Assembly: GCA_963677485.1 (NCBI GenBank)
Contig: OY781964.1
Location: 160,001 to 224,000, forward strand
Source: Armatimonadota bacterium
GTDB taxonomy: Bacteria; Armatimonadota; HRBIN16
Length of the DNA: 64,000 nucleotides
Direction: 5' to 3'
Part shown: in pieces, positions 908-48,563 of the stretch
How the letters are laid out: each line of letters starts with the position of its first letter
How positions within the stretch are numbered: the first letter of the stretch is position 1
The notes under the pieces: generated by a model
Database searches by the model: none
What the model was told of the DNA's origin: nothing
Seen by the model: the letters and a program-made list of their open reading frames with translations, nothing else
Translations under genes and position numbers: made by a program

Positions 908-3388
908 ATGACATTCATTCAGATATTCGTGCTGTTAGTGGTTTCTGCATTCGTGACATCATCTTGCCGGTGCGCCGCAGATGAGCGTCCAGTGACGAAA
1001 GACTGGATGCAGAAAGCCTTTCTAGCACAGCCAACCACGGCGCCGAAGCATCCGGGACTTGAACTCCTCCGCCAGGACTATGACAAACTGGGTTTCGGCA
1101 CCACTTGCGTGGCGGCACCAATAGTGTTGGGCAAAAAAAGCTACAAGCACGGATTAGGAACTCACGCTAACAGCGAAATTGTGGTGAGATTGCCCAAGCC
1201 AGGCACGGAATTCCAGGCTGAAGTCGGAGTAGATAATGGATGGCCGGGCAGTGTGTGCTTTGCTGTCGATGTAAATGGCAAAGAGATATTCAAGTCGGAT
1301 GTCTTAGAGGCTGATGGTGCTCCAGTACCGGTTCGATGCGATCTGCACGGTGTGAGCGAATTCACGATTCGCGTGACCGATGGCGGCGATGGCCCCAGCA
1401 GCGACCATGCAAGCTGGGCGGATGCTCGAGTGACGCTAGCCGACGGAAAGCAGATTTGGCTCGACGAATTGCCGCGTCAAGTTCCCTATATGGGGCTATC
1501 GACCGACATCCCGTTCTCGTTCAACTACGATGGGAAGCCGTCATCCTCATTCCTTTCGTCTTGGACGCGGTCGGAGACGAAATCCAAATCAGCAGACGGT
1601 AAAGAGAGCTGGAGCATCACATATACCGATCCTGACACCGGCTTGGAAGTGATCTGCGATGCCATTCAATACACAGACTACCCGGCGGTCGAATGGGTCA
1701 TGCACTTCCGCAATACGGGCTCGGTGGACACTCCCATCATCGATAGTGTCCGGCCGTTGAATTTGGGCGTCAACACCACGAACAGCTCCCCTGTGGTGCT
1801 CCACCATTCCAAGGGCAGCACCTGCAGCTCTACTGATTTCCTTCCAGTGAATGAAAGCATCGACCTCGGCGCCACGATCAACATCGAGCCAGGCGGTGGA
1901 CGCTCATCCGACAGTGCCCTCCCCTTCTTCAACCTCGAATGGGATGGAGGCGGAGTGGTCGGTGCCATCGGATGGTCAGGGCAATGGGCCATGAGCTTAA
2001 CCCGCGCTCAAGACGGCAAAATGAACCTGCAGGCAGGACAGAAGACAACCCACCTCAGACTGCACCCGGGCGAGAGCATTCGCACGCCGCGCATCTTGCT
2101 GGTGATGTGGCAGGGGAAGGATGCCATGCGTGGTCATAACCTGCTGAGACGGCTGCTATTGGCCCATTACGTACCAAAACAAGACGGGCAGATTGCAGTC
2201 GCCCCCACCACCTGGAACTCGTGGTTCAGCTTCGATGGTGGGAACAGCGTGGATGAGGCGAATCAACTTGACTGGATCAAACGCACGGCCAAAACAGGCA
2301 TGGAGTGCTACTGGCTCGATGCAGGCTGGTTTGAAGGCGGATGGCCAGCCGGTGCCGGAAGCTGGGTTCCTGATTCTAAGCGCTTCCCAAGGGGGCTCAG
2401 ACCATTAGGCGATGCGGCGCATAAAGAGGGCATGAAGTTTGTGCTTTGGCTGGAGCCGGAGCGTGTGAACCCAAACAGCCGGTTAGCCAAAGAACACCCT
2501 AAGTGGGTCATTCAAGATTGGGCCAAGAACAGTCAGCCAGGAGACGGTCTTCTCAACATAGGTGATCCTGTGGTGTACCGGTGGCTTACGGACTATCTGA
2601 CCAAGTGCTTTGCTGATTGGGGTGTCGATATCTACCGCATCGACTTCAATATCGCGCCGCTTGCGTTCTGGCAGTCAGCCGACACGCCGGACCGCCAGGG
2701 GATGACGGAAATCCGATATATCGAGGCACTATACTCGATGTGGGATGAGCTCATGAGAAGGCATCCTGGCTTGACTATCGATAACTGTGCGAGTGGTGGC
2801 AGACGCCTTGATCTGGAGACACTCAGCCGCAGCTATCCCTTGTGGAGAAGCGACATCCCATGCATGGGCAAGCAGCCGGTATGGGACCAGGTTCAGACAG
2901 CGGGTTTGAGTTTGTATGTTCCTCAACACACCACAGGCGTGTGGGCAATGGATCCATACACATATCGAAGCGCAGCCACAATGGGTGTGTCGATTTGCCC
3001 AGATCCCAGAGCGAAAGGCTATTCACTCGATCAGACAAAGCAGGCACTGGCTGAGGTAAAGAGGCTGCGCCTATACTACCTGGGCGACTATTACCCGATT
3101 TTCGACATCGGTTTGAGCGAACAGGGCTGGGCTGGCTGGCAGTTTGATAGGCCTGAGTTAGGCGGAGGGTTTGCCACTGTGCTGCGGCGGCCACAGTGTC
3201 CTTATGTCAGCGCAGATATCAAACTGCGTGGGCTTGAAGATAAGGCAGTTTATAAGGTCTCGTTCTATGAAACCTACAAACTCAAAACAGAACGGCAAAT
3301 GACCGGCATAGAACTGTCGAAGCTGCGCGTCACGATGGACACGGCCCCTGGCAGCCTGCTGATCGAGTATAAGAAGCTGAGCAAGTAA
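908..3388 (+). CDS. Secreted alpha-galactosidase (GH36) with N-terminal NPCBM/NEW2 module
   Basis: Signal peptide; NPCBM-like KHGLGTHANS...DHASWADA; GH36 motifs YWLDAGW, WLEPERV, RIDFN, IDNCASGGRRLD, WRSD. Start moved to ATG 908. Confidence 0.88.
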   Translation: MTFIQIFVLLVVSAFVTSSCRCAADERPVTKDWMQKAFLAQPTTAPKHPGLELLRQDYDKLGFGTTCVAAPIVLGKKSYKHGLGTHANSEIVVRLPKPGTEFQAEVGVDNGWPGSVCFAVDVNGKEIFKSDVLEADGAPVPVRCDLHGVSEFTIRVTDGGDGPSSDHASWADARVTLADGKQIWLDELPRQVPYMGLSTDIPFSFNYDGKPSSSFLSSWTRSETKSKSADGKESWSITYTDPDTGLEVICDAIQYTDYPAVEWVMHFRNTGSVDTPIIDSVRPLNLGVNTTNSSPVVLHHSKGSTCSSTDFLPVNESIDLGATINIEPGGGRSSDSALPFFNLEWDGGGVVGAIGWSGQWAMSLTRAQDGKMNLQAGQKTTHLRLHPGESIRTPRILLVMWQGKDAMRGHNLLRRLLLAHYVPKQDGQIAVAPTTWNSWFSFDGGNSVDEANQLDWIKRTAKTGMECYWLDAGWFEGGWPAGAGSWVPDSKRFPRGLRPLGDAAHKEGMKFVLWLEPERVNPNSRLAKEHPKWVIQDWAKNSQPGDGLLNIGDPVVYRWLTDYLTKCFADWGVDIYRIDFNIAPLAFWQSADTPDRQGMTEIRYIEALYSMWDELMRRHPGLTIDNCASGGRRLDLETLSRSYPLWRSDIPCMGKQPVWDQVQTAGLSLYVPQHTTGVWAMDPYTYRSAATMGVSICPDPRAKGYSLDQTKQALAEVKRLRLYYLGDYYPIFDIGLSEQGWAGWQFDRPELGGGFATVLRRPQCPYVSADIKLRGLEDKAVYKVSFYETYKLKTERQMTGIELSKLRVTMDTAPGSLLIEYKKLSK

Positions 3389-3561
3389 CGGCATCATCCG
3401 TAATTAAGTATCGAAGTATCCCCTGTCTGGGGCAGTCTATCCGCATTCACGCGGTTATAGGTAACTATAAGCCGCCCCGGACATACACAACCATATCGAC
3501 CACAAGGGATTCGTTCTGTGCATCTCGAACTATACAATAGTCACGATCTCAGGAGGAAACC

Positions 3562-5241
3562 ATGCTCGCGTTTCGTCACAGTATCAGTCTTCTGGCACTC
3601 AGCCTGCTTGCTGGCAGCGCCATGGCAAGGGATGTCATGCCCGACACATGGGTCGCCACCGATGGCGCCCAGCGCACTCTGCCCGGATATGCCCAGGCAG
3701 GCCCTGTCAGGTCCAACAAAACCGTCGGTATGTTTTACTTCAACTGGCACACACCCGGCATGCCTGGGCCATTCGACACGTCCAAAATCACCAAGGGTGA
3801 GCAGCAGTGGGGAGGCCCAGGGGCGTTTCACTGGTGGACAGAGCCTGAGATTGGGTATTACCAGACCGCCGATGAATGGGTGATCAAACGGCACTGCCGT
3901 CAACTCACCACGATGGGTGTGGATGTGATCGTGCTGGATGTCACCAACGCATTTGTCTACAAAGAGGCCTACATGGCTCTTTTCAAAGTGTTTACTGAGT
4001 TGCGGGCGAAAGGCGAATCGACCCCTCAAATCGCATTCATCGCCTGGGCAGGATCCGACAGGGTGGCGAAATCGCTATATGACGACCTCTACAGCAAGGG
4101 TCTTTACAAACCGCTCTGGTTCATGTGGAAGGGTAAGCCGTTAATGCTTGCCAACATGGAGAATATGCCAGAAGAGTACAAGCAGTTCTTCACCATGCGA
4201 GAGACCTGGGCATGGAACGGTGGCCAGCGTAAGGACTACTGGACCTGGCTGGATAACTACCCCCAAGGCGTCTGCTGGGATGAGCCTGGCGAAAAAGAGG
4301 AGCTGTCGGTCAGTGTGGGGCACCATGCCACCACCAACAAAGGGCGCAGTTTCCACAACGGCGTACAACCCTCACCAGATAAAGTCACGCCAGAACTGGC
4401 ACCCAACTATGATGAGCAGTGGAAGCGCGCCTTCGAGGTTGACCCCAAGTTCGTGTTCATCACCGGATTCAATGAGTGGATCGCCCAGCGGTTTATCAAC
4501 GATGGTAACACGCAGTTCCTGGGCAAGGCTGTCAAGGGCGAGAGCTTCTTTGTGGACAGCTACGACCGCGAATTCAACCGCGACATCGAGCCCATGAAGG
4601 GCGACTACACCGACAACACCCTCTACCAGACCATCGCCAAGGTGCGGCAATACAAAGGTGTCCGTCCCCTACCCCTTGCAGGTACTCTTAAGAGCATCAA
4701 AGTGGACGGTAAGCCGTCAGAGTGGGCTAACGTTAAGCCGGTCTTCCGCGACTGGATTGACGACACCGCCACCCGCGACAGTGTGGGATGCGGAGGTCTC
4801 AAATATATCAACAAAACTGGCCGCAACGACCTGATGGACTTCCAGGTCAGCCGCGATAACAAAAACATATACTTCCTGGCCCAAACCCGTGCGAATATCA
4901 CAGGCAAAGGCAACGGCAACTGGATGCTGTTGTTCATCGACGCAGACGCCAACTTCAAAACCGGCTGGATGGGTTATGACACCCTTGTCGATACTGGGGT
5001 GGTAAAGAAGTGGGACGGCACTCGGTTCAGTGCCTGCGGTAAAGCGGTTTATGCGGTGAAGGGCAACAGCTTGGAGCTGGCCATCCCGAAAGCCCTGCTC
5101 GGTTTAGGGAACAAGAAGAGCTTCACGCTGGACTTCAAATGGGCTGATAACATCCAAAAGATCGGCAGTGTTGAGGAGTTCTTCAATAACGGTGATGTCG
5201 CTCCCGACCGCCGCTTCAACTACAGATATCAGGTGAATTAA
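3562..5241 (+). CDS. Secreted putative glycoside hydrolase (GH99/GH71-like TIM barrel), paralog 1
   Basis: AGGAGG RBS; signal peptide; GMFYFNWH, HWWTEPEIGYY, H...GVDVIVLD, ITGFNEW motifs. Confidence 0.65.
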   Translation: MLAFRHSISLLALSLLAGSAMARDVMPDTWVATDGAQRTLPGYAQAGPVRSNKTVGMFYFNWHTPGMPGPFDTSKITKGEQQWGGPGAFHWWTEPEIGYYQTADEWVIKRHCRQLTTMGVDVIVLDVTNAFVYKEAYMALFKVFTELRAKGESTPQIAFIAWAGSDRVAKSLYDDLYSKGLYKPLWFMWKGKPLMLANMENMPEEYKQFFTMRETWAWNGGQRKDYWTWLDNYPQGVCWDEPGEKEELSVSVGHHATTNKGRSFHNGVQPSPDKVTPELAPNYDEQWKRAFEVDPKFVFITGFNEWIAQRFINDGNTQFLGKAVKGESFFVDSYDREFNRDIEPMKGDYTDNTLYQTIAKVRQYKGVRPLPLAGTLKSIKVDGKPSEWANVKPVFRDWIDDTATRDSVGCGGLKYINKTGRNDLMDFQVSRDNKNIYFLAQTRANITGKGNGNWMLLFIDADANFKTGWMGYDTLVDTGVVKKWDGTRFSACGKAVYAVKGNSLELAIPKALLGLGNKKSFTLDFKWADNIQKIGSVEEFFNNGDVAPDRRFNYRYQVN

Positions 5242-5243
5242 CC

Positions 5244-6959
5244 ATGAGAAACACCGCAGTAATCTCAGCCATCGCCTGTATGGCCTTCAGCGTAGGCTGC
5301 CTGGCGGCACTACCCGGCACACGTGACCTTTACGCTGACACATGGGTCGCCACAGACGGCATCGGTCGAACACTACCCACGGCTCCCGAGGTGCGGGTAC
5401 CTCAGGAGCACAAGACGGTCGGCATGTTTTACTTCCTCTGGCACAACGAAAACATGCCTGGCCCCTGGGACATTTCGAAAATCAACAAGGGCACTCGAAC
5501 CTGGGGCGGTATGAACGGGTTCCATCACTGGTCGGAACCAGAAGTCGGCTACTATATCTCCACAGACCCTTGGGTCTACCGTCGACATGTGCGCATGTTA
5601 AGCGATATGGGCGTGGATGTGCTCTTCATGGACGCCACCAACGCGGCTACCTATGAAACCCACTACAAGATACTGCTCGGTGTCATGCAGGAGATGCGCA
5701 AAGATGGCGAGAAGGTTCCTCAGATCGCATTCATCACCTGGAGCAGTTCGGGTAATACCACCGACCGCCTGATGAAGGCGTTGTATACACCAGGGCTCTA
5801 CAAGGATTTCTGGTTCATCTACAAAGGTAAGCCGTTGATCCTGGGTAAAGCCGAGGAGATGTCCAAAGAGGCATTGGACTTCTTCACCGTCCGGGCCGCC
5901 TGGGCTTTCGATGGCGGTAAGGCCAAGGATTATTGGACCTGGATTGACCACTACCCCCAAGGTGTGGCGTGGGATCAGCCTGGTGACAAAGAAGAGGTCA
6001 GTGTTTCTGTAGGCGGCCACCCGCATGAGAACCGAGGACGCAGCCTGGAAAGCGAGAAGCAGCCTCCGTATGAGAAGGTAACCCCAGAAAAAGGGCTGAT
6101 GTTCGCACAGATGTGGAAGCATGCACTTGACGTCGATCCTGACGTGATTTTCATCGATGGCTGGAATGAGTGGATCGCCCAACGCTTTGAGAACCAGGGA
6201 TATATGCTCTACGCAGGCCGACCAGCCAAAATCGGCGACCCCTTCTTTGTGGACACCTACGACCGCGAGTTTAACCGTGACATGGAGCCCATGAAAGGCG
6301 ACTACACCGATGCTACCTACTATGAGGGCGTCGCTGCGGTCCGTCAGTACAAAGGTGCCCGTCCCCTGCCCCTGGCAGGAGCACCGATGAGTATCAAGAT
6401 CGACGGGGATATGTCTGACTGGAAATCGGTGCAGCCAGAGTTTCGCGACCACGTGAAGGACACCGCCACGCGCAACAGCCAGGGATGGAACAAACTACAG
6501 TATGTCAACAACACCGGCCGCAACGACATCATGAACGCCAGGGTCTCGCGTGACAGCCAGAACCTTTATTTCATGGCGGAAACTTTCGGGCCGCTCAGCC
6601 CCAATTTCGGTCCAGATTGGATGCTGCTGTATGTCGATGCCGACAACGACCATTCCACTGGCTGGATGGGCTACGACTACATCGTGAACAGCGCGCAACT
6701 GGGCAGAGGTCTGGCTGAGGTCAGCAAGTGGGTCGGTCAAGGCTGGGTCAGATGCGGCCGCGCCAGTATCGCCACCAGCAGCAACTCGCTGGAGCTGTCG
6801 GTGCCGAAGTCGCTGTTGGGTCTAGCGGGTAACAGCAAGTTCACCATCGACTTCAAGTGGGCTGACAACATCCAGGACCGCACCAGCATCGAGAGCTTCT
6901 TCCTGAACGGCGACGTCGCCCCGGATCGCCGCTTCAACTACCGGTATCAAGTGAAATAG
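5244..6959 (+). CDS. Secreted putative glycoside hydrolase (GH99/GH71-like), paralog 2
   Basis: Colinear with the upstream gene (DTWVATDG, WNEWIAQRF, YDREFNRD, GDVAPDRRFNYRYQV). Confidence 0.65.
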   Translation: MRNTAVISAIACMAFSVGCLAALPGTRDLYADTWVATDGIGRTLPTAPEVRVPQEHKTVGMFYFLWHNENMPGPWDISKINKGTRTWGGMNGFHHWSEPEVGYYISTDPWVYRRHVRMLSDMGVDVLFMDATNAATYETHYKILLGVMQEMRKDGEKVPQIAFITWSSSGNTTDRLMKALYTPGLYKDFWFIYKGKPLILGKAEEMSKEALDFFTVRAAWAFDGGKAKDYWTWIDHYPQGVAWDQPGDKEEVSVSVGGHPHENRGRSLESEKQPPYEKVTPEKGLMFAQMWKHALDVDPDVIFIDGWNEWIAQRFENQGYMLYAGRPAKIGDPFFVDTYDREFNRDMEPMKGDYTDATYYEGVAAVRQYKGARPLPLAGAPMSIKIDGDMSDWKSVQPEFRDHVKDTATRNSQGWNKLQYVNNTGRNDIMNARVSRDSQNLYFMAETFGPLSPNFGPDWMLLYVDADNDHSTGWMGYDYIVNSAQLGRGLAEVSKWVGQGWVRCGRASIATSSNSLELSVPKSLLGLAGNSKFTIDFKWADNIQDRTSIESFFLNGDVAPDRRFNYRYQVK

Positions 6960-28561: not shown

Positions 28562-28583
28562 GTTTTCTCCTTGTAGTTAACTA

Positions 28584-28670
28584 GTCGTAGGGGCATCCCT
28601 TGTGGGCGCCCGCAACAAGAACTATCGATTGATCAACGATTAGGGTGCCCACAAGGAACGCCCCTACGAC
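28584..28670. repeat. REPIN (inverted pair of GTAG-type REPs)
   Basis: gtcgtaggggcatcccttgtgggcgccc ... gggtgcccacaaggaacgcccctacgac. Confidence 0.85.
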
Positions 28671-28812
28671 ATTATAAATCTCAGCCTATGCTGCCGTGCA
28701 TGCACGGTCGGGTGCTATTTTTATACCATCAGTCATCCTCTACATAATACTCCGCTGGTAACAACACCAAAGCGGTGGTATCATACCGCTAAATACACAG
28801 CAGGAGTGGCGC

Positions 28813-29859
28813 ATGCTGAAACCCTATCTGGAAGACTTGGAATCGCGTATCAATGAGCAGGACGAGCAAGCGCTGTTCGAGGAGTGGCTGAGGTTCACCA
28901 ACGGTCAGTTCGATGGGGAAATTTTCACGCCGCATCGACATTCACCTAGCCCTCCTTCCCTACCCTGGCCCAACCCCACCGTCAACGAGGCACTGGATGA
29001 CTTCGAAGCGATGGTGCTGCAGCAGTTGGGGCCGTGCTCCGCGCAGTTAGCCGCTGCGGGAGGTTCATTGCTCAACGTGCGGGCGAACTACGGCACCCCC
29101 ATCATCCCCTCGCTGTTTGGCGTGAAGCTTTATCGTATGGCTGACGCTCTGAACACCCTTCCCGCCAGTTGGCCGCTGGACGGCATCGAGGCGATTCGTG
29201 CGGTGGTAGACGGCGGTGTGCCTAACCTGCACCACTCACTGGGTGGACAGGCACTGGAAGCCGGTGCGCGGTATGTGGAGCTGTTCCGCGACTACCCGAA
29301 GATTTCGCGTTACGTGCATATATACCACCCCGATATGCAGGGGCCCATGGACCTTTGCGAGATGATATGGGGCAGCGGGATATTTATGGACAGCTACGAA
29401 CAACCTGAGCTGCTGCATGAGCTTCTGGAGGTGATCACACAAACCTACTCCGACTACATGCACGCCTGGGAGATGATCGTACCACATCGCGCCGATGGTC
29501 TGGCGGTGCATTGGGGGATGCTCACCAAAGGTCGGTTGATGCTGCGTGATGACTCGGCCATGAACTTCTCGCCGGCCATGTATCGTGAGTTCTTTGTGCC
29601 CTACGAGCAGCGTCTGCTCACGGAGTTTGGCGGTGGGGCCATGCATTTCTGCGGCCGAGGCACCCACTTCGTGCCCATCGCCACCACCCTGAAAGGTCTA
29701 TACGCCATCAACCTCAGTCAGCCTGAATGCAACAACATGGAGGCCATCTACCAGGCCACAGTTGACCGTGGGACACCCCTCATCGGGTTCTCCGGCCCCG
29801 AGGCCCAGCGTACATTGTCTGCAGGGCGTGATCTGCATTCGCTGGTGCATGTGGCTTGA
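28813..29859 (+). CDS. Uroporphyrinogen decarboxylase / methyltransferase (URO-D-like) superfamily protein
   Basis: DMQGPMD, LRDDSA..FSP.MY.EF..PY, HFCG motifs. Confidence 0.65.
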   Translation: MLKPYLEDLESRINEQDEQALFEEWLRFTNGQFDGEIFTPHRHSPSPPSLPWPNPTVNEALDDFEAMVLQQLGPCSAQLAAAGGSLLNVRANYGTPIIPSLFGVKLYRMADALNTLPASWPLDGIEAIRAVVDGGVPNLHHSLGGQALEAGARYVELFRDYPKISRYVHIYHPDMQGPMDLCEMIWGSGIFMDSYEQPELLHELLEVITQTYSDYMHAWEMIVPHRADGLAVHWGMLTKGRLMLRDDSAMNFSPAMYREFFVPYEQRLLTEFGGGAMHFCGRGTHFVPIATTLKGLYAINLSQPECNNMEAIYQATVDRGTPLIGFSGPEAQRTLSAGRDLHSLVHVA

Positions 29860-29871
29860 ATGTGATAGGGC

Positions 29872-30260
29872 GGGGCGTCCCTTGTGGGCGCCCGCTCATT
29901 AGCTGGCTCGAATGCCAAAGTCCGGGGCGGTCTGTGCGCAGGCGAGCGGTGGCAGGAGGCTCAAGACCGCGCCGGTCTAGCGGATAGCCACCAAAGACTG
30001 GTGTCGGGAACAAGCACTCGCCCGTGAAGGCACGGCAGCCCAGGCTGCAACTGATGGTGCCGGCAAATGGCCACGGGTTCAGTCACCCCACGGGACTGGC
30101 GTCCCTAAGGGGTTTCCTCACCGCGTGGCTGATCATTAGCGGCCGGCGTCGCTTCGCTCCGGCCGGCGCAGGGCATGTCCCCGCGTCCGCTTCAGCGGAC
30201 AGCCAGATGATAAGCGACGGGTGACGAGGCCTGCTTGAGCGGGCTGATGGAACCCGTCGC
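29872..30260 (+). ncRNA. Candidate large structured non-coding element (unassigned), preceded by a single REP
   Basis: More than a dozen nested helices found by eye, with G-T pairs on the + strand; no credible ORF; lies between convergent genes. Confidence 0.45.
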
Positions 30261-30310
30261 AGTTTGGCGGCATAACTTTAATAACGACCAGTTGCTTACA
30301 GTAGCCGCAG

Positions 30311-30946
30311 TTATACCTTGGCGATGCGAAGCAGCTCCTGGATCTTCTCGTCTTCCACTTCGTTCAGAATCACGCCAGCAGCGGCGGCGGAACACATCAT
30401 CCGGCAGCTCTGCTCAAACGACAGAACGCGCATCATCAAGCCTCGCATGGTGGCATGCATACAGATAATCCCGTGGTTTGCAAGGATGATGGAATCATGA
30501 TCCACGGCCATCTCCGACACTGCGTCGGCTAACGGCTGGGAGCCAGGAAATAGAAACGGCACACGCCCTACTCGTCCCAGATATACCATCACCTCAACGG
30601 TGGCCGTTTGGTTGGGCATTAGGTCGGTACACGCCAACAGCGTGCTGTAGTGCGGGCTCAAATGCGCTACAAAATTCACCTCAGGCCGTAGTTTGTATAT
30701 TCCGAGATGCATTTGCCACTCCACACTGGGACGCGGACCGCTATTTTCAGACCCATCCATATGGCACAGGCTCATCTCATCAAGCTGCAGCTCAGAAACC
30801 CAGCTTCCACTCGCCGAAATCAAAAAAGTCTCATCGTCTATTCGGGCACTGATATTGCCAGTTGACCCCCAGGCGATCTGATTATCACGTAACACACGAG
30901 ATATCCCAAGCATATTCTGCTGGGCCTCTTCTAATTGGATACTCAC
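30311..30946 (-). CDS. Class II aldolase/adducin family protein
   Basis: GSTGNISAR, PSVEWQMHLGIY, ILANHGII; GTG start overlaps the upstream stop (GTGA). Confidence 0.85.
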   Translation of the reverse strand: MSIQLEEAQQNMLGISRVLRDNQIAWGSTGNISARIDDETFLISASGSWVSELQLDEMSLCHMDGSENSGPRPSVEWQMHLGIYKLRPEVNFVAHLSPHYSTLLACTDLMPNQTATVEVMVYLGRVGRVPFLFPGSQPLADAVSEMAVDHDSIILANHGIICMHATMRGLMMRVLSFEQSCRMMCSAAAAGVILNEVEDEKIQELLRIAKV

Positions 30947-32313
30947 TTTGCTTCCATTTCTGCCATACTCACATGCAGTCGTCGGCGCAGCTCTGCCCAC
31001 TGCTGTACAACCTGGCCAACGTCTACTATCGGGCGTGTTATTTCAGAGTTCAAATATAGGATATCACCTCGCACCATCGTCAATCGGTTGAGGATGGCAC
31101 ACCCTTGCGAAACAACATCGTACATGGGGTCATCACTAATCGATGTCACACGGTCCAGATCAATCGCACTCAGGCTGGCAATATGCCCTTCGGCTATTCG
31201 TCCACAAGGATCATCAAGATGAATCGCTAAGCCACCAGAACAGACTGCCGCCTCTAACAACTCATCGGTCGATAACAATGGATTGGCCAGCAATGCCGCT
31301 CTCATCTCCGACCACATGTCCAGGTCACCCGAACTGGCGGCACTATCAGTGCCCAAGGCCCAAGTAAGGTGATGCCTGTTCCACAGATCGGTATCGGCCT
31401 GCCCCCCGCTTAGTGCCTCGTTACTGCGAGGGCAGTGTACGATCGGAGCGTGGTGCTGCTGCAGCGTCTCCATATCGGTCTCCTCAAGGTGAACGCCGTG
31501 GATCAGTGTGGGCTCATGGTTAAAAAATCCGCGTCGGTTCAGCGCTTGGACAGGGGTAGGTTGGTATATCGGCCACTTGATGCCCCTTTGTCGATACAAC
31601 TCCGAATAAGGCCCAGACTGTGATATCAGTAACGCCATTTCCTCGGTGCTCTCGCAAAGGTGGATGCAAAACGGCAGCTTCTTCCTTGAGGCAGTGCGAA
31701 CCATGGGCATCAGCGCAGCGGTCGGCACAGTATACAGGCTATGAGCACTCAGCCCGAGTTGCACATGGCTGCCATGGATATCTAGTTCAAGCGAGTTGAG
31801 GCGGCTGTTAAGTTCCTCTTCAAACGGCAGTGAGACCATGTCAGGCATGGCCGTAAACTCAAGGTAGACCGTGGCCTCCAAACCCATATCGGCGATCGCC
31901 CGTGGTGAGGTGTCGGAGAAGCTGACATCACCCAGAGCGGTCGTTCCGGATCTGACACTCTGAATCGCTCCATACAAGCTGCTCACATAGTAGTCTTCAG
32001 CACTCATCAGCTTCCGAAGCTCCATCAGCTTGCGTATCCATGTAAAGAAGTGAGGGCATTCAATCATATCGGCGAAGGCAGTATATTCCAAGTGAGTGTG
32101 GGCGTTGACGAAGCCCGGGAGCAGCATGGCATTGCCCAGCTCCACCACTCTGTCACCAAGGGAGGCCTGTTGCGGACGAACTGCCACGATCATGCCATTG
32201 TGGATCACAAGCTCGTAGTTCATTCGCAGGCCCATGTGCGGAGAATACATCCACTCAGACCGAAGAATGAGAACCTCAGAACCTTTTGGTAGCCTGTCTG
32301 AACGGAAACGCAT
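30943..32313 (-). CDS. Amidohydrolase family nucleoside deaminase (MTA/SAH or aminodeoxyfutalosine deaminase-like)
   Basis: PGFVNAHTHLE, HSLYTV, IHLCES, HCPRSN, LGTDS. Confidence 0.8.
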   Translation of the reverse strand: MRFRSDRLPKGSEVLILRSEWMYSPHMGLRMNYELVIHNGMIVAVRPQQASLGDRVVELGNAMLLPGFVNAHTHLEYTAFADMIECPHFFTWIRKLMELRKLMSAEDYYVSSLYGAIQSVRSGTTALGDVSFSDTSPRAIADMGLEATVYLEFTAMPDMVSLPFEEELNSRLNSLELDIHGSHVQLGLSAHSLYTVPTAALMPMVRTASRKKLPFCIHLCESTEEMALLISQSGPYSELYRQRGIKWPIYQPTPVQALNRRGFFNHEPTLIHGVHLEETDMETLQQHHAPIVHCPRSNEALSGGQADTDLWNRHHLTWALGTDSAASSGDLDMWSEMRAALLANPLLSTDELLEAAVCSGGLAIHLDDPCGRIAEGHIASLSAIDLDRVTSISDDPMYDVVSQGCAILNRLTMVRGDILYLNSEITRPIVDVGQVVQQWAELRRRLHVSMAEMEAK

Positions 32314-36259: not shown

Positions 36260-36618
36260 GTCTGCATGATGGGTAGACGGCTGCCGGTTCTTCGGAACGG
36301 GAGGAAAGTCGGGGCTCCACAGAGCGCGATGCCGGATAACGTCCGGGAGGGGAAACCCTATGGAAAGTGCCACAGAAAACAAACCGCCGGTCTCGGTCGG
36401 TAAGGATGAAACGGCGGGGTAAGAGCCCACCGCGGCTGCAGTAATGTAGCTGGCATGGTAAACCCCATCGGGAGCAAGACCCAATAGGGAGGCGCTAAGG
36501 TTGCTCGCCAAGTCTCCGGGTGTGGTCGCTAAAGCTTGATAGCAATATCAAGCGTAGATAGATAGCCGTCACCCTGGCAACAGGGTACAGAACCCCGCTT
36601 ATCGCCCTTCTTGCAGAC
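36260..36618 (+). ncRNA. rnpB: RNase P RNA (type A)
   Basis: GAGGAAAGTCGGGGCTCC ... GAAAGTGCCACAGAAAA ... GGTAAACCCC ... ACAGAACCCCGCTTA; P4 shows compensatory change; terminal gtctgca/tgcagac stem. Confidence 0.97.
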
Positions 36619-36679
36619 ACTTGACCTTTGCTGCCAGTCGCCCGACTGGCAGCTTATTTTAGTAACTGTGAGCGCCTAC

Positions 36680-36767
36680 CAAGTCCTACTCGTCCTACGT
36701 ATCTTACATGTCATATGAACCAGCTTTGTCATAGGACGGCTAGGATGAGTAAGACGAGTATGACTTG
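36680..36767. repeat. Inverted repeat built from 9-nt tandem units
   Basis: gtcctactc/gtcctacgt/atcttacat/gtcatatga mirrored by tcataggac/ggctaggat/gagtaagac/gagtatgac. Confidence 0.7.
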
Positions 36768-36816
36768 CTGGCTACCCGCCCCTCCTGCTCTCCTCTGCTC
36801 CTGTCTCCTGCCTCCC

Positions 36817-36858
36817 TAAAAAGCAAACACCCCCCGCAACGGATGCTGCGGGGGGTGT
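36817..36858 (-). terminator. rrn operon intrinsic terminator
   Basis: acaccccccgca / tgcggggggtgt stem followed by a T-rich run on the minus strand. Confidence 0.75.
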
Positions 36859-36868
36859 GAAAGAAAAC

Positions 36869-36986
36869 CCCTGGCGATGTCCTATCCTCCCGGAGGCTTG
36901 CGCCCCAAGTACTTTCGGCGCTGGAGGGCTTAACGGTCGTGTTCGGTATGGGAACGAGTGTATCCCCTCCGCCGTGATCACCAGGA
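36869..36986 (-). rRNA. rrf: 5S rRNA
   Basis: Reverse complement contains CCTGGTG...CCCATACCGAACAC...GCCGAAAGTACT...CGCCAGG. Confidence 0.96.
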
Positions 36987-37075
36987 GAGCCTTGACGCGA
37001 TTAGATCGCATCGGGTAGACATGGCCGCATTTCACACAACTTATCTATAGGCGGTGTGCGCCCTTAAAGTATCGG

Positions 37076-40018
<2,943 letters not shown>

Positions 40019-40312
40019 TTCGATACCTTAGAGGCGCAACACACTACATTACTGCAATGTGCCACCATCTATAGAATTCATTACAGAAGTTTCCTTCTGT
40101 GACTGTCTTGTTTGTTTTGTGAAATGTGTAGCTTCAAGTAATTAGCTTTGATTTTTGGATTATTCATCCTAAACCATAGCTTCTTAACTTAAAGATGCCA
40201 TGTCTACCCTATGCGATTTTCAATGTGCGTCTCGCCACTTTCGTGACAACTTTGCCGGATTGCAACCCGGCATTTCTTCTTACCTGCCACCCACCTACCA
40301 AAACCTAAATCT

Positions 40313-40388
40313 TGGTGGAGGATAGCGGGCTCGAACCGCTGACCCCCTGCTTGCAAAGCAGGTGCTCTCCCAACTGAGCTAATCCCCC
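40313..40388 (-). tRNA. tRNA-Ala(TGC)
   Basis: 76-nt cloverleaf, TGC anticodon, encoded CCA, located in the ITS. Confidence 0.97.
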
Positions 40389-40397
40389 AAACTTGGG

Positions 40398-40474
<77 letters not shown>

Positions 40475-40582
40475 ACGCCGCGAGACCGCGGAGACTAGGT
40501 GAAACTTGTTAAACCAAAACTAAAGAATAATAACTCGGACGACCTGAGAGATGCTCACCACTCCGAAGAGTGGGGCGCTTCC

Positions 40583-42134
<1,552 letters not shown>

Positions 42135-48358: not shown

Positions 48359-48389
48359 ACTATTTCTGTAAGTCTCCTTGAAAGTAACA

Positions 48390-48480
48390 GGTCGTAGGGG
48401 CGTCCCTTGTGGGCGCCCTAATCAATTATACTATCGTAAGAGCAACGATTCGGGCGCCCACAAGGGACGCCCCTACGACC
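48390..48480. repeat. REPIN (inverted pair of GTAG-type REPs)
   Basis: ggtcgtaggggcgtcccttgtgggcgccc ... gggcgcccacaagggacgcccctacgacc, perfect arms. Confidence 0.9.
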
Positions 48481-48563
48481 GCATCAGTTACAGCCTAGGC
48501 TGCCATGAGCTCATGAGTGGATGCTGTCTATTTTGAAGCAAGCTCAACCAAAGCCGCAAGCTG

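What the first reader, a model, noticed from the sequence alone, without database searches (positions are those of the whole stretch)
29896..30260. Candidate novel ~370-nt multi-branched structured RNA between convergent genes
Seen in sequence: the 450-nt gap between the URO-D-like gene and the aldolase has no credible ORF but folds by eye into a nested structure. Closing helices: tcat..ctggct (29896-29908) with agccagatga (30201-30210); cgggg..gtct.tgcgc (29923-29939) with gcgca.gggc..ccccg (30166-30183). Domain 1: ggcgag/ctcgcc (29941/30017), ggtggc/gccacc (29948/29987), agaccg/cggtct (29964/29973). Twin hairpins: cgtg-aagg-cacg and gcagc-ccag-gctgc (30023-30048). Domain 2: ctgatggt/atcattag (30051/30132), ggccacg/cgtggct (30069/30124), acccc/ggggt, gggac-tggc-gtccc. 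Further hairpins: cggccgg/ccggccg and gtccgc-ttca-gcggac. 3' domain: gcgacgggt/acccgtcgc (30214/30252) enclosing ggcctgc-ttga-gcgggct. Non-Watson-Crick pairs in these stems are G-T on the + strand, as expected if the + strand folds. I see no tmRNA, SRP, 6S, RNase P, group I or group II hallmarks. Inference: an unannotated large ncRNA, or the single-stranded form of a non-autonomous mobile element; a REP sits at its 5' edge (29872-29893).
Basis: partly seen in the sequence, partly recalled or inferred. Interest (0 to 1): 0.85.

Follow-up and report, generated by a model that had tools for sequence, protein, structure and literature searches.

The report
Mosaic of palindromic repeat elements
The supposed 370-base structured RNA is a patchwork of short hairpin-forming repeats that occur hundreds of times in this genome and are missing from the same spot in a sister species, so it is inserted repeat DNA of a familiar kind and not a new RNA gene.

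Summary
The region folds better than shuffles, but on both strands (z -3.74 and -4.10), and no Rfam family matches.

It is not a single-copy RNA gene. It is a chain of at least five interspersed repeat modules. In the own genome their copy numbers are A 341, B 111, C 113, D 85 and E 7, spread over 307 clusters.

- **Module A** is one half of a roughly 162-bp inverted doublet with 75 copies. Its arm is the commonest 16-mer in the genome.
- **C+D** is a roughly 190-bp unit made of two inverted hairpins. In sister species G001, five copies of it flank a single-copy Y1 (IS200-like) transposase gene, which is the REPIN/RAYT hallmark.
- **Orthologous site:** in G001 the same two genes lie about 60 bp apart, with no mosaic between them.
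- **Long-range helices:** across the five full composite copies the outer helix is not kept, the inner one is kept only by sequence identity, and there is no covariation. Local hairpins do show compensatory changes across the family.

Interest is low.

The parts
28813..29859 (+). Flanking gene: URO-D-like ORF (348 aa)
   Evidence: ORF. Pfam URO-D E 5.8e-06, 26 bits against a cut-off of 23.9. Ortholog in G001 at 82% nt identity.
29866..29895 (+). Singlet REP hairpin of a GTAG-headed family, sitting just after the stop codon
   Evidence: Sequence. The family has 141 sites at <=4 mismatches, 60 as inverted pairs. Doublets of the same family lie in the window at 28583-28670 and 48390-48480.
29885..29912 (+).
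   Evidence: My reading of the alignments, where other copies carry TCGCCTCTATTGCAGCCAAGCGT before the TGCC start. Here the similarity is only loose, so this part is an inference.
29913..30014 (+). Module A: one half of the ~162-bp A inverted doublet, a hairpin with arms CCGGGGCGGTCT / AGACCGCGCCGG
   Evidence: 341 nhmmer hits. 75 A+/A- doublets of mostly 159-164 bp with ~19-21-bp terminal inverted repeats. The arm motif has 801 sites at <=2 mismatches, and the top genome 16-mer (224 copies) lies in this arm. RNAalifold pairs the two arms with each other.
30009..30055 (+). Module B: the two small 'twin' hairpins
   Evidence: 111 nhmmer hits. B follows A 15 times, precedes A 12 times and precedes C 14 times. 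B is the sharp left end of the 292-bp B-E composite.
30064..30262 (+). C+D unit (C 30070-30173, D 30183-30259): a REPIN-like element with two related terminal hairpins in inverted orientation and two small central hairpins
   Evidence: C has 113 hits and D 85. The CD model gives 157 non-overlapping hits, 77 of them full length, and the unit also hits its own reverse strand. The termini match 16 of 20 when one is reverse-complemented (my count from the strings printed). Compensatory changes occur in local stems. The DNA fold has z -3.44. Five copies flank a Y1 transposase gene in G001.
30260..30300 (+). Module E: the tail of the composite, ending in the 'beta' terminus (CCAGTTGCTTACA) also seen outside A doublets
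   Evidence: 7 nhmmer hits, all directly after D. It forms the sharp right end of the composite in 10 aligned copies. The resemblance to the right outer flank of A doublets is my reading.
30311..31000 (-). Flanking gene: class II aldolase (229 aa)
   Evidence: ORF. Pfam Aldolase_II E 3.6e-34. Ortholog in G001 at 80% nt identity.

Best explanation
Window 29866-30300 is a mosaic of genus-specific palindromic interspersed repeats of the REP/REPIN type. It arrived in, or grew within, the 3' intergenic space between two convergent genes in this lineage. It is not an RNA gene. From left to right it holds a singlet GTAG-type REP, the left half of an 'A' doublet, a small twin-hairpin module B, a complete ~190-bp C+D element made of two inverted hairpins, and a tail E.

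Most likely mechanism (inferred, not shown): the hairpin units are non-autonomous elements that are cut and pasted as single-stranded DNA by single-copy Y1 (HUH) transposases of the RAYT type. For C+D the cognate enzyme is the Y1 gene that sits between five C+D copies in sister species G001. The own genome has lost that gene, or never had it. Larger blocks (B-E, 292 bp; A-E, ~388 bp) then spread or were duplicated as units, including as a tandem trio, probably through recombination or replication slippage between shared end motifs.

The long-range 'closing' helices arise by chance from GC-rich arms that happen to be juxtaposed in this one copy.
For: - Repetition: blastn of window:29860-30300 against the own genome gives 73 matches. 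At word size 9 there are 453 HSPs in 273 places, with sharp module borders at 29913, 30014, 30055, 30070, 30173 and 30259. Two rounds of nhmmer give A 341, B 111, C 113, D 85 and E 7 hits, in 307 clusters. 16-mers with >=5 copies cover 77% of 29896-30260.
- Independence of the modules: A occurs 75 times as an A+/A- doublet without B-E, and C+D are adjacent 22 times.
- Empty orthologous site: in G001 the two flanking genes match at 82% and 80% identity. They are separated by about 60 bp that hold one GC hairpin.
- Distribution: matches were found in 3 of 41 genomes searched, namely the own genome and both other species of the genus. They were found in 0 of the 38 genomes outside the genus. An exact 22-mer scan of 185,579 species genomes found it only in one metagenome chromosome record.
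- REPIN/RAYT hallmark: the G001 Y1_Tnp ORF (144 aa; Pfam Y1_Tnp 63.9 bits against a cut-off of 23) is flanked by 2 + 3 C+D copies.
- Structural constraint on local hairpins only: pair 30186-30199 is C-G in 40 copies and T-A in 36; pair 30073-30126 is G-C in 42 and A-T in 26; pair 30232-30241 is C-G in 38 and T-A in 21.
- Long-range helices: the outer one is 34-50% paired, and there is no covariation.
- No strand logic: both strands fold equally well. Module orientation relative to the neighbouring gene is balanced (A 86 same, 74 opposite; C 23/25; D 13/20; B 28/25).
- Location: only 10 of 307 clusters fall inside a gene call. Convergent gaps are enriched, at 93 of 307 clusters against 483 of 3286 gaps genome-wide.
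- Both junctions with unique DNA appear in contigs of two public runs with 0 differences, so the mosaic is not an assembly artefact of this record.
Against: - None of the three Y1 transposase genes in the own genome is directly flanked by A, B or C+D. Their immediate flanks are other repeat families with 35-130 copies. The G001 enzyme has no ortholog here; the best matches are 36-39% identity to the three resident genes.
- Even so, the B-E composite copies are 90-94% identical, which looks fairly recent. This leaves open who moved them.
- No enzyme at all is linked to A. No target-site duplication was found at 69 anchored doublets. The 5 A+...A- intervals of 2.5-4.5 kb hold no transposase family: 0 of 10 ORFs, 2 of them without any Pfam match.
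- NCBIfam's REP-associated tyrosine transposase model is missed by all four Y1 proteins (no hit to 31.3 bits against a cut-off of 80). They are RAYT-like by context, not by that model.
- Transposition was not observed; only one empty site was compared. The intergenic hairpins of the two species differ, so exact insertion borders cannot be read.
- Metatranscriptome contigs of two runs carry pieces matching C and D, so transcription of some copy cannot be excluded.
Confidence: 0.85

Rival explanations
1. A single novel large structured non-coding RNA gene: the plus strand of 29896-30260 is transcribed and folds into one nested multi-domain RNA.
For: All listed helices exist. The plus strand has z -3.74. 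There is no Rfam match, so it would be new. The centroid fold includes both long-range helices.
Against: The interval is built of modules repeated 85-341 times and is absent at the orthologous site in G001. The outer closing helix is not kept in the other 4 composites, and there is no covariation. The minus strand folds equally well. No promoter-like site was found, and the single terminator-like site is at shuffle level.
Confidence: 0.02
2. A multi-copy family of functional RNA elements: the C+D or B-E units act in transcripts, for example as 3' stabilisers, terminators or small RNAs. The hairpin covariation would then reflect RNA structure, not DNA structure.
For: Compensatory changes keep local stems intact. 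The clusters are enriched between convergent genes, that is at 3' ends. Contigs of two metatranscriptome runs match 30081-30173 and 30183-30240, some with 0 differences. The literature describes REP effects on mRNA turnover (abstract of PMC3479197 in the listing).
Against: There is no orientation bias relative to neighbouring genes or in 14 composite copies. The unit is quasi-palindromic, so either strand folds. The RNA contigs do not reach unique flanks, and the tool warns that RNA libraries may contain DNA. Five copies flank a transposase gene in G001, which points to DNA mobility. This reading can be true in addition to the main one.
Confidence: 0.08
3. Module A and the alpha/beta-bounded composites are classical MITEs, moved by a DDE transposase of an insertion sequence and not by a Y1 enzyme.
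For: A doublets have ~19-21-bp terminal inverted repeats and a uniform length of 159-164 bp. No Y1 gene is flanked by A in either genome. The genome carries at least one 22-copy ~1.65-kb element with a 511-aa ORF of unknown family.
Against: No target-site duplication of 2-9 bp appears at any tested border offset in 69 doublets. None of the 5 candidate intervals holds a parent element with A termini. Each half is itself a hairpin, as in REPs. The ends of the 22-copy element were not compared with the A termini.
Confidence: 0.1

Closest known systems
REPINs (REP doublets forming hairpins) with their RAYT transposases, as described in Pseudomonas and enterobacteria (PMC3116915 and PMC3337134: abstracts seen in the listing; PMC5581495: passages read)
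   Same: Both are extragenic, occur in hundreds of copies and consist of two related palindromic units in inverted orientation (A doublets; C+D). The commonest genome 16-mers belong to them. They are confined to one genus, which is what vertical inheritance would give but does not show it. The single-copy Y1 transposase genes are flanked by their repeat family.
   Different: The units are longer (about 162 and 190 bp) and contain nested or optional hairpins. The Y1 proteins miss NCBIfam's REP-tyrosine-transposase cut-off. The cognate gene for C+D is present in G001 but not in the own genome, and A has no linked gene. The 16S rRNA is at most 77.8% identical to any plasmid-borne 16S of Proteobacteria, Firmicutes or Actinobacteria, so the host lies far from the groups where REPINs were characterised. 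That last clause rests on my recall of the literature.
BIMEs (bacterial interspersed mosaic elements) of E. coli; recalled, no paper read
   Same: Both are clusters in which REP-type palindromes combine with other short conserved motifs in varying order and number, often tandemly, in intergenic space. Here that means A, B, C, D and E in several combinations and arrays.
   Different: The sequences are unrelated, the modules are much longer, and the composites of 292-388 bp are themselves dispersed as units.
Modular MITE-like repeats such as pneumococcal BOX elements and Neisseria Correia elements; recalled, no paper read
   Same: Both are small, non-coding, hairpin-rich and have terminal inverted repeats. 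The build is modular, with variable internal parts, for example the optional GGGAC...GTCCC hairpin tip in C.
   Different: No target-site duplication was detected and no parent insertion sequence was found. C+D is associated with a Y1 transposase gene.

Membership tests
REPIN/RAYT system | Short extragenic repeat present in many copies in the genome | tested here: met
   Hits: A 341, B 111, C 113, D 85. Only 10 of 307 clusters fall inside a gene call. 131 of 657 hits lie >50% in a crude ORF call, 113 of those in ORFs under 600 nt.
REPIN/RAYT system | [quoted passage not shown] | tested here: met
   75 A+/A- doublets. The C+D termini match 16 of 20 in inverted orientation, and the model hits both strands at the same place. 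In the window itself A is only a half doublet.
REPIN/RAYT system | A single-copy Y1 (IS200-like) transposase gene flanked by the same repeat family | tested here: inconclusive
   Met for C+D in G001: ORF L063:1411-1845 lies between 2 + 3 copies. Not met in the own genome: 0 of 3 Y1 genes have A, B or C+D as the immediate flank, and the G001 gene has no ortholog. Not met for A in either genome.
REPIN/RAYT system | The transposase belongs to the curated REP-associated tyrosine transposase family | tested here: not met
   NCBIfam NF047646 scores range from no hit to 31.3 bits against a cut-off of 80 for 4 of 4 proteins. All 4 pass Pfam Y1_Tnp (63.9-79.3 bits against 23), and 2 of 4 pass the IS200 equivalog.
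REPIN/RAYT system | Mobility: insertion polymorphism between related genomes | tested here: met
   The site is filled in the window and empty in G001. Only one site was compared, and the enzyme-dependent mechanism was not tested.
Structured non-coding RNA gene (any Rfam family, or a new one) | Match to a curated covariance model | tested here: not met
   No gathering-level match in the interval. The best match at E<=10 scores 15.7 bits against a gathering score of 35.
Structured non-coding RNA gene (any Rfam family, or a new one) | Covariation supporting the proposed global fold | tested here: not met
   2 pairs have double changes against 2.0 +/- 0.8 in shuffles. The outer helix is 34-50% paired. 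The RNAalifold covariation term is +3.48. Only 5 sequences were available, so power is low.
Structured non-coding RNA gene (any Rfam family, or a new one) | Conserved at the orthologous locus in relatives | tested here: not met
   Absent between the same two genes in G001. In G002 the two genes lie on different contigs, so nothing can be said there.
MITE (DDE-transposase dependent) | Terminal inverted repeats | tested here: met
   The ends of the A doublets form ~19-21-bp inverted repeats.
MITE (DDE-transposase dependent) | Target-site duplication | tested here: not met
   No excess of 2-9-bp direct repeats over shuffled pairings at 12 border offsets in 69 of 75 doublets.
MITE (DDE-transposase dependent) | A parent insertion sequence with the same termini | tested here: not met
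   5 intervals bounded by outward-facing A ends: 0 of 10 ORFs hit a transposase family. The ends of the 22-copy element were not compared.

The most novel reading that the evidence does not exclude
In this genome a REPIN family (C+D), fused with other modules into 292-388-bp composites, has kept spreading: about 12 composite copies at 83-94% identity, including a tandem trio. Yet its cognate Y1 transposase, present in the sister species, is missing, and the orthologous site is occupied by a 22-copy element. That would mean either trans-mobilisation by a non-cognate RAYT or a transposase-independent way of copying composite repeats. It would be a natural case of REPIN persistence after RAYT loss, in a bacterial phylum far from those where REPINs were studied.
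Probability: 0.2. Interest if true: 0.4.

Novelty: new member of a known kind. Interest (0 to 1): 0.18.

Why it matters
The main value is as a correction. A long, GC-rich, hairpin-dense intergenic stretch with a good folding z-score looked like a new large RNA, but it is inserted repeat DNA. Copy number in the own genome and the orthologous site in a sister species settle the question in a few steps.

There is also a modest positive result. An uncultured genus, known only from metagenome-assembled chromosomes, carries an unusually rich set of REPIN-like families: at least six, with 4% of the genome in 16-mers of five or more copies. It has several single-copy Y1 transposases, modular composites, and one family whose cognate transposase is present in one species and absent in another. 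That makes the genus usable material for studying how REPIN populations behave after their transposase is lost. It does not open a new kind of system.

Tried and rejected
- **Rfam:** no family at gathering threshold over the whole window or at E<=10 over 29800-30350.
- **TnpB/omega-RNA idea:** I asked whether the sharp 3' end of the composite marks a guide-RNA scaffold. The Cas12f1-like_TNB family (PF07282) gives only one sub-threshold match in the own genome (22.1 bits against 26.3). Dropped.
- **Parent insertion sequence for A:** five A+...A- intervals hold ordinary genes (RadC, glycosyl hydrolases, glyoxalase, dehydrogenase, BNR sialidase-like) and two ORFs without a family. None is a transposase.
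- **Target-site duplication at A doublets:** none found.
- **Promoter/terminator scan of 29700-30450:** 0 promoter-like sites, and 1 terminator-like site on the minus strand, which is at shuffle level.
- **Consistent gene context of the composite:** the downstream gene is co-directional in 10 of 14 copies, but three of those are one tandem trio and the gene calls are crude. I did not take this as a signal.
- **Expression:** The look-up of sequencing runs listed 23 runs. Five hold 0.80-0.89 of the sampled words, and three RNA runs hold 0.05. I laid X1, X2, X18 and X19.
  - The two DNA-type runs are contig sets that break inside the repeat, but they cover both unique junctions with 0 differences.
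  - The two metatranscriptome runs have contigs over parts of C and D only (6 and 8 of 30 bins) and none over the flanking genes.
  - These are contigs of a multi-copy repeat, possibly from DNA carry-over or from relatives, so they show neither transcription of this locus nor its absence.
- **G002:** the two flanking genes lie on different contigs, so there is no information about the site.
- **First RNAalifold runs on pooled module alignments:** these gave weak or empty structures for A and B because the copies are heterogeneous. I used anchored alignments instead.
- **Coarse placement of the organism by 16S against plasmid-borne rRNA genes:** this gave only <=77.8% identity, and no phylum was assigned.
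Supplementary files of papers were not requested.

Full report
**What is at the coordinates.** The URO-D-like ORF ends at 29859. The class II aldolase ORF runs 30311-31000 on the minus strand. The gap between them is 451 nt and holds only ORFs of 41-77 aa. Four of these were scanned and none matched Pfam at E<=1. All 105 pairs are Watson-Crick or G-T. The interval 29896-30260 folds to -181.6 kcal/mol on the plus strand, against -160.6 +/- 5.6 for dinucleotide shuffles (z -3.74). The minus strand gives -174.9 against -151.4 +/- 5.7 (z -4.10). The structure is therefore real and non-random, but it is not strand-specific. Rfam has no match at gathering level anywhere in the interval. At E<=10 there are only four chance-level matches of 11.7-15.7 bits.

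**It is repeated DNA.** A search of the organism's own 5.22-Mb single-contig genome with window:29860-30300 returned 73 matches. A more sensitive blastn gave 453 HSPs in 273 places. HSP starts and ends pile up at 29913, 30014, 30055, 30070, 30173 and 30259, which means the interval is a chain of separable modules. Two rounds of nhmmer gave these counts:

| Module | Window coordinates | Hits |
|---|---|---|
| A | 29913-30014 | 341 |
| B | 30009-30055 | 111 |
| C | 30070-30173 | 113 |
| D | 30183-30259 | 85 |
| E | 30260-30300 | 7 |

Together they cover 45,687 bases, or 0.88% of the genome, in 307 clusters. The commonest 16-mer of the whole genome (224 copies) lies in the arm of module A. 16-mers with five or more copies cover 77% of the finding and 4.05% of the genome. 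Summed contig depth in two public runs rises from about 9-12 in the flanks to 3,154-4,275 over the A core, as expected for a high-copy repeat.

**Anatomy of the modules.**
- **Module A.** A is one half of a very uniform element. It is followed 75 times by an inverted A within 40 bp. This gives doublets of mostly 159-164 bp whose ends are ~19-21-bp inverted repeats. Each half is itself a hairpin with arms CCGGGGCGGTCT / AGACCGCGCCGG. This arm motif has 801 sites at <=2 mismatches.
- **C+D unit.** C and D together form a second doublet-type unit of about 190 bp.
  - A model built on 30062-30262 finds 157 non-overlapping hits: 140 in the own genome and 17 in G001 loci that I supplied. Of these, 77 are full length.
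  - The model also hits the reverse strand at the same places.
  - The two termini match 16 of 20 when one is reverse-complemented (my count).
  - As single-stranded DNA the unit folds into two large terminal hairpins plus two small central ones (z -3.44).
  - Subfamilies differ by an optional hairpin tip and by a replaced central hairpin.
The REP at 29866-29895 is a singlet of yet another family, with a GTAG head. That family has 141 sites, 60 of them as inverted pairs. Doublets of it lie elsewhere in the window.

**Composites.**
- The block B-E (30009-30300, 292 bp) has sharp ends in ten aligned copies. It occurs seven times on its own at 90-94% identity.
- The whole block A-E (~388 bp) occurs five times at 83-88% identity, three of them in tandem.
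- Outside the A doublets there are two kinds of weaker outer extension. One of them precedes A in the composites. The other resembles the last bases of E.
- My inference is that the composite is an A-type element whose right half was replaced by B, C+D and E while the outer ends were kept.

**Tests of the global fold.** On the five full composites:
- The outer closing helix (29896-29908 with 30201-30210) is paired in only 34-50% of cells. Its 5' arm lies outside the repeat.
- The second closing helix (29923-39 with 30166-83) is 91-96% paired, but 11 of its 14 pairs never vary.
- Overall, 2 pairs show double changes against 2.0 +/- 0.8 in shuffles.

RNAalifold gives a covariation term of +3.48, which is a penalty. 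With five similar sequences the power is low. The decisive points are that A exists about 340 times without the C end it is supposed to pair with, and that the whole block is missing in the sister species.

The larger C+D family does show compensatory changes in local stems:

| Pair | Main state | Alternative state |
|---|---|---|
| 30186-30199 | C-G in 40 copies | T-A in 36 |
| 30073-30126 | G-C in 42 copies | A-T in 26 |
| 30232-30241 | C-G in 38 copies | T-A in 21 |

These stems are 77-99% paired, against 10-78% in slid controls. The short hairpins are therefore under constraint and the global fold is not.

**Orthologous site and distribution.**
- In G001 (same genus, closed chromosome) the URO-D-like gene matches at 82% identity and the aldolase at 80%. 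The two matches lie 37 bp apart, and the intergenic stretch is about 60 bp with a single GC-rich hairpin and no mosaic.
- The repeats were found in the own genome and in both other species of the genus. They were found in 0 of 15 genomes of the same family and 0 of 23 of the same phylum.
- An exact 22-mer of module C occurs in only one record among the 185,579 species genomes scanned, a metagenome chromosome.
- G002 carries mainly a 63-bp sub-module of C.

**Link to a transposase.**
- The own genome has three Y1_Tnp genes. Each is a different sequence (25-54% identity to each other). Each is tightly flanked by inverted copies of other repeat families with 35-130 copies. This is the arrangement described for RAYTs and their REPINs (passages of PMC5581495; abstracts of PMC3337134 and PMC3116915).
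- None of the three is directly flanked by A, B or C+D.
- G001 has four Y1_Tnp matches. One of them, a 144-aa ORF, sits between two C+D copies on one side and three on the other.
- That protein has no ortholog in the own genome (best 36-39% identity).
- At the orthologous place the own genome has a ~1.65-kb element present 22 times, with a 511-aa ORF that has no Pfam match. It also has a 149-aa ORF without a match and, by my reading of the sequence, a C+D remnant.
- All four Y1 proteins pass Pfam Y1_Tnp, but none reaches NCBIfam's REP-associated tyrosine transposase cut-off.

**Context.**
- Clusters lie between convergent genes 93 times, between tandem genes 157 times, between divergent genes 47 times and inside a gene times. 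The genome background is 483, 2319 and 484 gaps (gene calls are my crude longest-ORF calls).
- Module orientation relative to the neighbouring gene is balanced.
- The composite has no consistent context.
- No promoter-like site was found, and the one terminator-like site is at shuffle level.

**Conclusion.**
- The finding is a lineage-specific mosaic of REP/REPIN-type elements. The ncRNA reading is refuted.
- What is shown: repetition, modularity, the empty site, hairpin constraint, and the transposase association of C+D in G001.
- What is inferred: single-strand transposition by Y1 enzymes, the way the composites arose and spread, and the loss of the cognate enzyme in this genome.
- What remains unknown: what moves A.
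- The organism is an uncultured bacterium whose 16S is at most 77.8% identical to any plasmid-borne 16S in the collection. I did not assign a phylum.

Noticed in passing
G000:C1:376078-376404, 2992049-2992381 and 4121913-4122239 (loci L011-L013), outside the window: Three different single-copy Y1 (IS200-like) transposase genes. Each is tightly flanked by inverted copies of its own repeat family with 35-130 genome copies, which is the classic RAYT/REPIN arrangement. These families differ from those in the finding.
   Followed up: partly
L063:930-2490 (G001:C1, around 2078630-2078953): In the sister species a 144-aa Y1 transposase ORF lies between 2 + 3 direct copies of the ~183-nt C+D element. 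The own genome has no ortholog of this gene.
   Followed up: yes
G000:C1:3157615-3159260 (L065:216-1860): A ~1.65-kb element of lower GC, present 22 times in the genome, with a 511-aa ORF that matches no Pfam family. It occupies the site where G001 has its C+D-flanked Y1 gene. It is probably an insertion sequence of an unrecognised family.
   Followed up: partly
window 28566-28698 and 48373-48507: Two ~130-bp copies (79-83% identity) of a repeat containing an inverted doublet of the GTAG-headed REP (arms 48390-48423 and 48447-48480, 97% complementary). The singlet at 29866-29895 belongs to the same family. Partial module B hits lie at their ends (28682-28716, 48483-48508).
   Followed up: partly
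G000:C1:2362485-2363883: A 1.4-kb array with three tandem full A-E composites plus one extra A. Many other arrays alternate A with an unidentified ~90-bp spacer module at a period of roughly 140-210 bp, for example C1:3271957-3272534 and 3076804-3077383.
   Followed up: no
window 3643-4886 and 5337-6583: Two adjacent ~1.2-kb stretches at 71-86% identity with a spacing of 1694-1697 bp. This looks like a tandem gene duplication and is unrelated to the finding.
   Followed up: no
window 36265-42134: RNase P RNA (class A, 302 bits) lies about 250 bp from a complete rRNA operon on the opposite strand (5S, 23S, two tRNAs, 16S).
   Followed up: no
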